DNA from: Mizuhopecten yessoensis
Lineage: Eukaryota
DNA: 64,000 nt
Assembly: GCF_002113885.1 (NCBI RefSeq)
Contig: NW_018403786.1
Location: 1,497,858 to 1,561,857, forward strand
Direction: 5' to 3'
Numbering within the stretch: the stretch's first letter is position 1; each line of letters starts with the position of its first letter. The position numbers are program-made. Below, in pieces: positions 32,301-35,300 of the stretch.

Positions 32301-35300
32301 GTTTCCCCCTTGCCCTGTCATCCTCTGTACCCTCATTCCCCACCTTCGCTATTAGATCACCCATGACGACTATGAGATTGTGCTTAGCTGTCTTTTCCAT
32401 TCCTGCCTGAAGACTATGGTAGAAGCTGTCGTTGGTCTCGTCTTCGATGTCGTTCGTCGGGGCATAGCTCTGGATTACAGTGATGTTGATGTGCCTCCCT
32501 TTCAGTGGATAAATTTCATTGATGTGCCTCTTGTCAGACGACTGCTGACAGGCTCCCATTCTGGCAATCATCGCTCTACTCCCCTTTTCAAGATTTATGC
32601 CACTCCTTCTGTATGTTGGCCGTCATCTCCATCCAAGTATAAAAGTGTCTCACCCGTTACTGTCGTCTGTCGACCTGATCCTGTCCATCTGCATTCGCTC
32701 ACACCCATGATATGTAGGTTGTAGCGCCCATCTCTCATGTTACCTGTGCAAGCTTACCTTAATCGTACATAGTACCATGTGGCATGTGACTTGCTGACAG
32801 AACCTACTTGAGACGGTAAGCTTTCCCGGCATTTACAAGAGGCACCGTAGTGACATTAATATCTCTCGCCGGGAGCTTTATCAGCATTTGACCCAATAAC
32901 TATATAAACTAGTCAGTATTTGGTAAAGGTAACCTCAACCCATTTGTGTGTGAACTTTATAGTATTATTATGACTAAGGCTAATGACCAAAGCTAGAATC
33001 ATCTCATTGTAAATATCATCATCTTTTTGTTAAATATTAAATTGTTAAACTTTATGTACAGCTCGTTGTGGTTTTTTTTTCATTCTATACCATTGGCACA
33101 CCGAACCTAGGCGTAGTAGGTGCTGATACAACTAGGTGGCGCCACTTCGAAAACCCTCTTGTAAATGCCCCTTGCCCTACTTAATGTGTATACGTCATAT
33201 TCTTACCCAGAATTCCCGTTTCTCGTATCGTCAGATATTTTTGATAATATTAATTGATAAAACCCCAGATCTAGAATAATGTGTTCTCACCCTCTATTAA
33301 AACTTTTATCATTTTTATTATGCAATGAAGGATGCACAACTTCACCTGTACCAGCTTACAAACGCACAAGGTGCAATCAACTGTTGTTTATTTGGAAATA
33401 CGATCACAAAATCCTCGATGCCATTTTCTCGCTTCCCATGAAATGGGCTATCTGGCCTACGCTATATGCGTCAGAAAGCCAAAATTCACAGCGAATTTGT
33501 AAATCATTATTTATCATGCAGTGTGACAAGTAACGAGTACTCATTAAACTGGGGAAGAAAATTCTTTTTATCTTTCGCATATTACATGATGCTCCTGATT
33601 GTTGTTTCAGTCCAGTGAAGACCACAGTGGTGACTAATGACCGATGGGGAAGTGGGGACATCTGTAAACACGGGGGCTATTTCACCTGTTCTGACCGGTA
33701 CAATCCAGGTACGTGTACGGACCGGTGCAATCCAGATACGTGCACTGACCGATACAATCCAGGTACGTGTACTGACCGGTACAATCCAGGTACGTATACT
33801 GACCGGTACAATCCATGTACGTGTACTGACCGGTACAATCCAGGTACGTGTACTGACCGGTACAATCAAGTACGTGTACTGACTGGTACAATCCAGATAC
33901 GTGTACTGACCGATACAATCCAGGTACGTGTACTGACCGGTACAATCCAAGTACGTGTACTGACCGGTACAATCCAGGTACGTGTACTGACCCGTACAAT
34001 CCAGGTACGTGTACTGACCGGTACAATCCAGATACGTGTACTGACCGGTACAATCCAGGTACGTGTTTTGACCAGTACAATCCAGGTACGTGTGCTGACC
34101 GGTACAATCCAGGTTCGTGTGCTTGCCGGTACAATCCAGGTACGTTTACTGACCGTTACAATCTATGTACGTGTACTGACCGGTACAATCCAGGTACGTG
34201 TACTGACCGGTACAATCCAAGTACATTTCGTAACAGGTACGATCAAGGTACATATACTGACATGTTATGTAAAAGCATTCTACACTCTAGTTCGAAATAC
34301 AGGCAAGGTATATACTGTATAAGTATTATTTAATAAAAAAAATATCCATTTGTAGCAGGTAAGTATAGAAAAATAAGATCTAACGACCGACTAAAAAACA
34401 AGTTGCTTGAAAGCAGCTTGTTTTTTAGTCTGTAGTTAGATATAATTTTCTATACATAAGAAAATAATTACAGCATGGTCTAATATGAGCACTGGATCCG
34501 AACAAATATTCGCTGAATGCGTATATGATATATATATGGAAGTGTCTATATATAAAACGTTACTACTTAAGTGCTTTTCTAGCATAGCTTTGTATTGTAG
34601 GACTACGATTAATATTACAGTGCTGTGTACGTATCGGATACAAATTCTATTAATGTCTCACTATGTGGGTTTTAATTTTGTTGACACGTTAAGTCTTTGG
34701 CCTTTGCATGACCTATCACTGATTGAGAAAATCAACCTATCGTTGTGTAGGCCAAAACGCAATGCGTTAATGGGTGACCGACGGCAACAATTGTTTTCAG
34801 ATTATACGAAGTTCAACCATTGTCACATCTACGTTAACTTGCTATGCATGCCTACATTGAGATTGTATGATAAAATCAATTGAGAAATAATTCCAACTGT
34901 GTACGGGGTATTGAACCCCCTACATCATCCTGGGGCACTCACCCAGTGTATTAAGTATGTTCCAGGCTATGTTGCAAATGTTACAAGTACCGAGCAGGAA
35001 AAACTTTGATAATTGCGTTGTGTATATATTTATACGGATTAATGTGAAACGTTTCTTGGGGGAAAATGTAAAGATAATTGCAGGGGACGGAAACGCAATA
35101 AAAAAATGTAACATGTCAATTATGTTAAACAAATAGCATTAATATCTTATATATATAAATGCAAAATATGTCTTAAGTTTTAAGCGATAGATTTTAATTT
35201 ATTGATAGTTGGTATATTTTTATAAGATTTCTTGCTTAATAAATATATGGCAAGCCAACTTAAAACTTAAGTCAAGTTATAAAAGATACATTATTAAATA

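What the first reader, a model, noticed from the sequence alone, without database searches (positions are those of the whole stretch)
33691..34262. Fucosidase donor array can add in-frame copies of the catalytic acid/base loop
Seen: the 27-bp unit encodes TDRYNPGTC in frame with exon 5, and the frame stays open through the first six units. Intact ag|gtacgt donors lie after 33708 (canonical), 33762 (+18 aa), 33789 (+27 aa) and 33843 (+45 aa). A 1-nt deletion in unit 7 (33853-33878) puts all later donors out of frame. Established: this CSDRYNPG aligns with human FUCA1 CEDKFKP, whose Asp (D276) has been assigned structurally as the acid/base; older work proposed the Glu of KWE. Inference: alternative donor use would give isoforms with extra Asp/Cys-bearing loops at the active site, or NMD targets, so enzyme output could depend on VNTR copy number.
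Basis: partly seen in the sequence, partly recalled or inferred. Interest (0 to 1): 0.72.

Follow-up and report, generated by a model that had tools for sequence, protein, structure and literature searches.

The report
Minisatellite copying a fucosidase splice donor
A 27-base repeat that grew out of the end of exon 5 of a scallop fucosidase gene repeats the splice donor about twenty times inside the intron; this layout is already known from several human genes, where the extra donors are mostly silent.

Summary
Window 33687-34261 is a 27-bp tandem array of 21.3 copies. Its first unit is the last 22 nt of exon 5 plus the first 5 nt of intron 5 of a GH29 alpha-L-fucosidase. The DNA is scallop, not human: the Mizuhopecten yessoensis model P0007 matches the exons letter for letter.

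Perfect CAG|GTACGT donors lie in frame after 33708, 33762, 33789 and 33843. A 1-nt loss in unit 7 puts seven later perfect donors out of frame. The repeated peptide does cover the catalytic acid/base Asp, human D276.

- This is a known kind: a minisatellite whose first monomer spans an exon-intron boundary. Human F7, LMNB2 and PDGF keep the pseudo-donors silent; IFI6 and CBS use the nearest two.
- The open frame is what chance gives (0.77).
- The nearest pseudo-donor is dead.
- The Asp-to-WE loop length is 11 residues in 281 of 289 motif matches.
- No database protein carries the repeat.

Most likely this is a largely silent intronic array, at most a source of splicing noise. No RNA data, other alleles or other scallop genomes could be checked.

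The parts
33611..33708 (+). Exon 5 of the GH29 alpha-L-fucosidase gene (98 nt). It encodes ...[25 protein letters not shown], including the acid/base Asp.
   Evidence: Exact match to P0007 residues 111-144. Acceptor tttcag|T and donor CAG|GTACGT. Aligned to 7pls_A at E 3.5e-9.
33687..34261 (+). 27-bp minisatellite of 21.3 copies. Unit 1 is the last 22 nt of exon 5 plus the first 5 nt of intron 5.
   Evidence: TRF score 877. 18 matches against 0 expected. Unit table.
33706..33714 (+). Authentic donor CAG|GTACGT, cut after 33708, phase 1.
   Evidence: It agrees in 8 of 9 positions with the MAG|GURAGU consensus quoted in PMC1557585.
33733..33741 (+). Unit 2 pseudo-site CAG|ATACGT. The GT is lost, so the nearest decoy is dead.
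33760..33849 (+). In-frame pseudo-donors. Perfect CAG|GTACGT sites are cut after 33762 (+18 aa), 33789 (+27 aa) and 33843 (+45 aa). A weakened CAT|GTACGT site is cut after 33816 (+36 aa).
   Evidence: The frame is open.
33849..33874 (+). Unit 7, 26 nt. One C of the CC pair is missing and the -1 G is changed to A. It shifts all later donors by -1.
33875..34261 (+). Units 8-21, all out of frame. Seven are perfect CAG|GTACGT sites, cut after 33923, 33977, 34004, 34058, 34085, 34139 and 34193. The units degenerate toward the 3' end.
37073..37205 (+). Exon 6 (VLQNHKWEN...), with acceptor acag|G. Read from its first base, as after an out-of-frame donor, it stops at TAA 37169-37171.

Best explanation
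This is an intronic minisatellite that arose by tandem duplication of the exon 5/intron 5 junction of a scallop GH29 alpha-L-fucosidase gene. The splice donor is therefore repeated down the first 550 nt of intron 5.

Shown: the array, its register, the state of each donor, and its position on the acid/base loop.

Inferred:
- Origin. Unit 1 is conserved coding sequence, so the exon seeded the array and not the reverse. The array then spread by slippage or unequal exchange.
- Splicing. The spliceosome uses the most upstream donor (33708) almost exclusively, as in human F7, LMNB2 and PDGF. The pseudo-donors are silent decoys or, at most, a small source of noise. That noise would be in-frame products with an over-long acid/base loop, and out-of-frame products that stop in exon 6.
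- Consequence. The array is neutral or slightly costly, not an isoform generator. It is tolerated in one member of an expanded fucosidase gene family.
For: 1. The array and its junction register are real.
2. CSDRYNPG at the exon end is shared by the same-species paralog P0009 and by P0008. Relatives carry CADRYDPG and CHDKYNPG. Read-through models from many animals diverge right after NPG, so the intron position and the coding sequence are old and the array is derived.
3. Precedent from PMC1557585 (abstract, introduction and discussion read). In F7 IVS7, a 37-bp array whose first monomer spans the boundary, only the most upstream donor is used although the pseudo-sites are functional. LMNB2 and PDGF also use only the authentic site.
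4. The gene is otherwise intact. Eight exons are open and 43 of 45 invariant columns are kept. PF01120 is hit by 6 of 7 exon pieces. This fits productive splicing.
5. The open frame needs no selection (0.767 and 0.673 in simulation).
6. No protein among the hits covers the repeat. Of 413 hits, the 120 listed reach at most 62% query coverage. Of 118 hits, those listed reach at most 28%.
7. The loop length is 11 residues in 281 of 289 matches. The loop is a 14-residue coil (266-279) ahead of strand 280-286 in the AlphaFold model of paralog P0009, which has mean pLDDT 91.2 and matches 7pls_A at TM 0.90/0.96.
8. Minisatellites are common in this window. At least five other arrays have 9 or more copies in 64 kb.
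9. Scallops carry many fucosidase paralogs: 8 genes in Chlamys farreri (PMC5159873, passages read).
Against: - No transcript data were available, so the silence of the pseudo-donors is inferred from mammalian precedents, not shown for a mollusc.
- Two of the five precedents (IFI6, CBS) do use pseudo-sites.
- Ten pseudo-sites are identical in their 9-mer to the authentic site. The array RNA is no more structured than shuffles (z +1.11; 19 of 20 shuffles fold at least as well), so nothing visible masks them.
- From recall, not from a call: in some in vitro systems the downstream copy of duplicated strong 5' splice sites is preferred.
- The human residue at the junction position, Gln281, points to solvent, so an insertion there is not sterically excluded.
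- P0007 is a computed model with a non-canonical exon 7/8 join, so it is weak evidence for the real mRNA.
Confidence: 0.6

Rival explanations
1. Some pseudo-donors are used at a detectable level. This would give in-frame isoforms with 18, 27, 36 or 45 extra residues in the acid/base loop, and out-of-frame, prematurely stopped transcripts. Productive output would then fall as copy number rises.
For: - Three perfect in-frame and seven perfect out-of-frame 9-mers are identical to the authentic donor.
- IFI6 and CBS use two pseudo-sites each.
- There is no masking structure.
- The out-of-frame consequence is verified: a stop after 32 codons of exon 6.
- The junction residue aligns with solvent-exposed human Gln281.
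Against: - The nearest pseudo-site is dead. In IFI6 and CBS only the nearest two are used, and in F7, LMNB2 and PDGF none.
- Loop length is almost invariant (281 of 289).
- No protein with the repeat is found.
- The open frame is a chance expectation.
- Copy-number variation has not been observed.
Confidence: 0.22
2. The paralog is under relaxed constraint, on the way to a pseudogene, and the junction array is one of its lesions. In that case splice choice has little consequence for the animal.
For: - The window's gene has Arg at the Trp column W292 (P0009 numbering). That column is invariant in the 49-sequence alignment and reads W in 279 of 280 motif matches.
- 5 of 98 nearly invariant columns differ.
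- The family is expanded in scallops.
Against: - All eight exons are open with canonical splice sites.
- 43 of 45 invariant columns are kept, including the nucleophile and acid/base Asp columns.
- The signal peptide is present.
- The W-to-R change could be an allele or a sequencing error.
Confidence: 0.1
3. The array acts in cis through U1 snRNP binding at many sites. It could strengthen use of the upstream donor or definition of exon 5, or hold back or slow the transcript, rather than making isoforms.
For: 18 of 21 units keep a GT in donor register. That clustered 5' splice site motifs influence neighbouring splicing and nuclear retention is recalled knowledge and comes from no call.
Against:
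- The F7 study found no autonomous regulatory element in the neighbouring intron (section heading in the outline; discussion).
- Donor-core positions are not conserved above the rest of the unit. They carry 8 of 29 changes.
Confidence: 0.04
4. Assembly artefact. The copy number, or the 1-nt loss in unit 7, is an error of assembly in a repeat.
For: Arrays of near-identical 27-mers are hard to assemble. 5 of 21 units equal the consensus. One indel decides the frame of 14 units.
Against: The units carry distinct, ordered variants and decay gradually toward the 3' end, as in a real array. Unit 1 is anchored in conserved coding sequence.
Confidence: 0.04

Closest known systems
Human F7 intron 7 37-bp VNTR (PMC1557585)
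   Same: The first monomer spans the exon-intron boundary, so the authentic donor is followed by pseudo-sites of identical sequence that compete for a single acceptor.
   Different: F7 has 5-9 copies, only 4 exonic nt in the monomer and a weak donor (UGG|gugggu). This array has about 21 copies and 22 exonic nt, so the units are coding-like and in frame. Its donor agrees with the consensus in 8 of 9 positions, and a frameshift sits inside the array. In F7 the silence of the pseudo-sites is shown by experiment; here it is inferred.
Human IFI6 (6-16) intron 2 and CBS intron 13 minisatellites, as summarised in PMC1557585
   Same: A junction-spanning minisatellite provides reiterated donors. The two pseudo-sites nearest the authentic one are used.
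   Different: Here the nearest pseudo-site has no GT. The host protein is an enzyme, and the insertion would fall in its catalytic loop. The original IFI6 and CBS papers were not read.
Human LMNB2 (100-bp unit) and PDGF (81-bp unit) junction minisatellites, as summarised in PMC1557585
   Same: The junction is reiterated in the intron and only the authentic donor is used.
   Different: Those units are longer. Their details were not read here.
Animal GH29A alpha-L-fucosidases with an Asp acid/base (human FucA1, PDB 7pls; PMC9548408)
   Same: The PF01120 domain and the nucleophile and acid/base Asp columns are kept. The loop and strand arrangement is the same in the model of the paralog.
   Different: The window's gene has Arg at an otherwise invariant Trp column, and its acid/base-loop codons have been amplified into the intron.

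Membership tests
Minisatellite whose first monomer spans an exon-intron boundary (F7 / IFI6 / CBS type) | Head-to-tail array of units of about 10-100 bp | tested here: met
   Period 27, 21.3 copies, 87% matches. 18 matches against 0 expected.
Minisatellite whose first monomer spans an exon-intron boundary (F7 / IFI6 / CBS type) | The first monomer contains the authentic exon-intron junction | tested here: met
   Unit 1 is 33687-33713. The exon ends at 33708, by exact match to P0007 and by homology to P0009 and 7pls_A. The junction rests on a computed model and on homology, not on RNA.
Minisatellite whose first monomer spans an exon-intron boundary (F7 / IFI6 / CBS type) | The donor sequence is reiterated unchanged in the intron | tested here: met
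   10 pseudo-sites have the same 9-mer, CAG|GTACGT, as the authentic site.
Minisatellite whose first monomer spans an exon-intron boundary (F7 / IFI6 / CBS type) | Copy number varies between alleles (VNTR) | not testable with these tools
   Only one haplotype is in hand, and no collection of eukaryotic genomes was open.
Minisatellite whose first monomer spans an exon-intron boundary (F7 / IFI6 / CBS type) | Known pattern of donor use in transcripts | not testable with these tools
   No RNA data. Protein searches found no product carrying the repeat, which is weak negative evidence.
GH29 alpha-L-fucosidase (animal GH29A) | Alpha_L_fucos domain (PF01120) | tested here: met
   6 of 7 exon pieces hit PF01120, with E from 1.6e-34 to 4.3e-4. 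The exon 6 piece gave no hit, and the exon 5 plus array piece scored 20.3 bits, below the 25.2 cut-off. Exons were searched one by one.
GH29 alpha-L-fucosidase (animal GH29A) | Catalytic nucleophile Asp and acid/base Asp (human D225 and D276) | tested here: met
   Invariant columns D218 and D269 of P0009 are kept in the window's exons 4 and 5. D269 aligns with the 7pls residue that corresponds to D276. That D218 equals human D225 is inferred from the constant offset of 7.
GH29 alpha-L-fucosidase (animal GH29A) | All family-invariant residues are present | tested here: not met
   43 of 45 invariant columns are kept. W292 is Arg, and S241 is split over the exon 4/5 junction and was not mapped. 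The column reads W in 279 of 280 matches and R in 1.
GH29 alpha-L-fucosidase (animal GH29A) | C-terminal beta-sandwich domain (PF16757) | tested here: inconclusive
   Exon 8 piece: E 3.8e-4, 21.4 bits, below the 25.6 cut-off.
GH29 alpha-L-fucosidase (animal GH29A) | Fucosidase activity | not testable with these tools
   This needs the expressed protein.

The most novel reading that the evidence does not exclude
The array is a working, copy-number-tunable splice rheostat in an invertebrate. A measurable share of transcripts would use the in-frame donors and give GH29 isoforms with an acid/base loop lengthened by 18-45 Asp- and Cys-rich residues at a solvent-facing position. The seven out-of-frame donors would drain transcripts into stopped products. 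Alleles with different unit numbers, or different frameshift positions, would then differ in fucosidase output or specificity.
Probability: 0.06. Interest if true: 0.6.

Novelty: new member of a known kind. Interest (0 to 1): 0.3.

Why it matters
If the pseudo-donors are silent, this locus is a natural invertebrate counterpart of the human F7 model. It offers ten pseudo-sites identical in their 9-mer to the authentic donor, spaced 27 nt apart, some in frame and some not. [quoted passage not shown]

If they are used, it would show a minisatellite altering the catalytic loop of a glycosidase. That loop's length is otherwise fixed across animals.

For genome annotation, it warns that gene finders may pick a wrong donor in such arrays. 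As it stands, it is an ordinary instance of a described phenomenon.

Tried and rejected
- **RNA structure masking the decoys.** Rejected. MFE is -213.7 against -219.1 +/- 4.9 for shuffles, z +1.11.
- **Selection keeping the frame open.** Rejected as evidence; chance gives 0.77 and 0.67.
- **Selection disabling decoys.** The two G's at -1 and +1 take 8 of 29 changes in units 2-20, against 2.1 expected (binomial p about 0.001). The positions were chosen after seeing the data, and shared variants are copies of one another. My hand count from the table gives only 3 of 23 distinct variant types at those positions. Inconclusive.
- **Known RNA family in or near the array.** Only sub-threshold hits, all on a hairpin at 34360-34478; the best was 37.2 bits against a gathering score of 90.
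- **Proteins carrying the repeat.** Exon 5 plus six units, against longer proteins: 413 hits, and the 120 listed reach at most 62% coverage. The whole array ORF, against proteins of similar length: 118 hits among 8000 scored candidates, at most 28% coverage. None carries the repeat.
- **Literature on scallop minisatellites and splicing.** 4 papers, none relevant by title and start of abstract (listing only).
- **Not done.**
The extended isoforms were therefore not modelled.
  - The fold is of the same-species paralog P0009, not of the window's protein.
  - Orthologous introns in other scallops, other alleles and RNA reads could not be examined.
  - Supplementary files of the papers were not opened.

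Full report
**What is there**

Window 33687-34261 is a head-to-tail array with period 27, 21.3 copies, 87% matches and score 877. The consensus unit, allowing up to 3 mismatches, occurs 18 times. All copies lie on the + strand inside the array, against 0.00 expected in 100 shuffles.

The window is AT-rich animal DNA with a single N at 7182. It is not human. Exon 1 of the gene is 88% identical to a Mizuhopecten yessoensis protein (P0009), 82% to Argopecten and 81% to Ylistrum. The M. yessoensis model P0007 matches the window letter for letter in seven blocks.

**The gene**

An eight-exon GH29 alpha-L-fucosidase lies on the + strand. The exons are about:
- exon 1: 26293-26645
- exon 2: 28278-28384
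- exon 3: 28851-28981
- exon 4: 29405-29538
- exon 5: 33611-33708
- exon 6: 37073-37205
- exon 7: 37560-37730
- exon 8: 38584-38863

I searched the exons one by one. Six of seven pieces hit PF01120, and the last exon hits PF16757 below its cut-off. I did not build, search or fold a joined model, so nothing below rests on a spliced sequence of my own. The canonical junction is taken from P0007 and from homology.

**Anatomy of the array**

Unit 1 (33687-33713) is the last 22 nt of exon 5 plus the first 5 nt of intron 5. Its donor, CAG|GTACGT, agrees in 8 of 9 positions with the MAG|GURAGU consensus quoted in PMC1557585. No other donor in this gene matches better. The others are AGG|GTTAGT, TCG|GTAGGT, AGG|GTACGT, CAG|GTACAG, GAG|GTGAGG and TTG|GTATGT.

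- The same 9-mer recurs in frame after 33762, 33789 and 33843.
- Unit 5 has CAT|GTACGT, in frame and weakened.
- Unit 2 has CAG|ATACGT, with no GT.
- Unit 7 has 26 nt, so the seven later perfect 9-mers (units 9, 11, 12, 14, 15, 17, 19) are out of frame.
- Units 8 and 13 also lack GT.
- The last units decay, with 2, 8 and 13 mismatches.
- Five of 21 units equal the consensus.
- All units but unit 1 have ACT where the exon has TCT. The array therefore grew from a copy that had already changed, while unit 1 stayed under coding constraint. This last point is inference.

**Consequences of using a pseudo-donor**

The exon-5 frame is open through the whole array (ORF 33534..34322). In-frame donors would add 18, 27, 36 or 45 residues of the TDRYNPGTC kind. 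An out-of-frame donor leaves no carried base, so exon 6 would be read from 37073 and stop after 32 codons, at 37169-37171.

The open frame is not a sign of selection. Simulated arrays with the same number of substitutions stay open in 0.767 of trials (units 2-6) and 0.673 (units 8-21).

**The catalytic loop**

Exon 5 plus the first units aligns to human FucA1 (7pls_A, E 3.5e-9). CSDRYNPG sits over CEDKFKPQ. Chain index plus 25 gives D276, Q281 and E289.

PMC9548408 (passages read) makes four relevant points:
- Asp276 is the acid/base.
- Glu289 lies on beta-strand 7 and stabilises that loop.
- Gln281 points into the solvent.

The scallop junction codon (Gly) aligns with Gln281.

An AlphaFold model of the same-species paralog P0009 has mean pLDDT 91.2 (49-row alignment). 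It shows coil at 266-279 and a strand at 280-286, with pLDDT below 50 at 267-269. It matches 7pls_A at TM 0.90/0.96 and rmsd 1.8.

**Would such a loop be tolerated?**

Against tolerance: among 330 held proteins, 280 carry the motif and give 289 matches. The distance from the acid/base Asp to [WF]E is 11 residues in 281 of them. The eight exceptions are as follows.
- P0243 and P0270 look like read-through of a short intron.
- P0276 and P0315 run from NPG straight into the exon-7-type sequence (NIGPT...), so exon 6 appears to be skipped.
- P0263 and P0274 are short fragments with a chance FE.
- P0323 and P0328 are unnamed proteins with +3 and +1 residues.

For tolerance: the junction position is solvent-facing in the human enzyme.

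**Precedent**

PMC1557585 (abstract, introduction and discussion read) describes exactly this layout. It lists five human genes.
- F7 IVS7 (37 bp): only the most upstream donor is used, although the pseudo-sites are functional. Pseudo-sites with a consensus value of up to 91 do not compete.
- LMNB2 and PDGF: only the authentic site is used.
- IFI6 and CBS: the two nearest pseudo-sites are used as well.

In the scallop array the nearest pseudo-site is dead, and the next live ones lie 54 and 81 nt away.

**Other tests**

- The array RNA is not unusually structured (z +1.11).
- No Rfam family reaches its threshold.
- No protein in two large searches carries the repeat.
- The two G's flanking the cut take 8 of 29 changes in units 2-20. 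Counted by hand from that table, they account for only 3 of 23 distinct variant types. I make nothing of this.

**Context**

- Minisatellites are frequent in this window.
- Scallops have many fucosidase genes: 8 in Chlamys farreri, 7 of them seen in the hepatopancreas proteome (PMC5159873, passages read).
- The window's copy has Arg at a Trp column that is otherwise invariant.

These points fit a tolerated, probably young array in one paralog.

**Verdict**

The most likely reading is a largely silent junction-derived minisatellite, a new member of a known kind. Still open: actual donor use, copy-number variation, and presence of the array in other scallops or in the paralog.

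Noticed in passing
window 37117-37131 (exon 6): The window's fucosidase reads KSRGY where the family has an invariant Trp (column W292 of P0009). The column reads W in 279 of 280 motif matches, and the single R fits P0007, the window's own gene. This could mean relaxed constraint, an allele or a sequencing error.
   Followed up: partly
window 37690-37731 and 38584: Database model P0007 lacks exon 1. It also joins exon 7 to exon 8 at a site without GT and skips 14 residues ([14 protein letters not shown]). 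The window supports a canonical TTG|GTATGT donor after 37730 and acag|G at 38584, as in P0008.
   Followed up: partly
window 33687-34261, every unit: Each unit holds TACTGAC, which looks like a branch point, 14 nt before CAG|GTACGT. Each unit is thus formally a branch point, acceptor and donor in one. Splicing from one unit to another would regenerate the same junction and leave no trace. The pyrimidine tract is poor, and nothing was tested.
   Followed up: no
window 28979-28995 compared with 33687-33692: The exon 3 donor reads AGG|GTACGTGTTCT. Its intron therefore starts with the same letters as a unit end followed by the start of unit 1 (TGTTCT). If intron 5 once began the same way, a 6-nt direct repeat 27 nt apart could have seeded the first duplication by slippage. 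This is speculative.
   Followed up: no
window 34370-34449: An inverted repeat with 39-nt arms, 87% complementary and 2 nt apart, lies about 110 nt 3' of the array. It draws only sub-threshold matches to plant miRNA families. It may be a small foldback element.
   Followed up: partly
window 1972-2702, 12627-13283, 16536-20525, 41559-42240, 58347-58846: Other tandem arrays: 29 bp x 25, 41 bp x 16, a satellite of about 178 bp, 45 bp x 15, and 54 bp x 9. Tandem arrays are common in this stretch of the genome.
   Followed up: no
window 43308-44156, minus strand: A single open frame of 282 aa with a TLC (TRAM/LAG1/CLN8) domain, E 1.3e-10.
   Followed up: partly
window 27684-28061 (minus strand, intron 1) and 31793-32753 (minus strand, intron 4): These look like retroelement fragments inside fucosidase introns. 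The first gives a zf-RVT match at E 5.9e-4, below its cut-off. A 125-aa ORF in the second region gave no Pfam hit.
   Followed up: partly
proteins P0012, P0074, P0087, P0243, P0270 and others: Many short database proteins from unnamed contigs read straight through the intron that follows NPG. This phase-1 intron position is therefore shared widely among animal GH29 genes.
   Followed up: no
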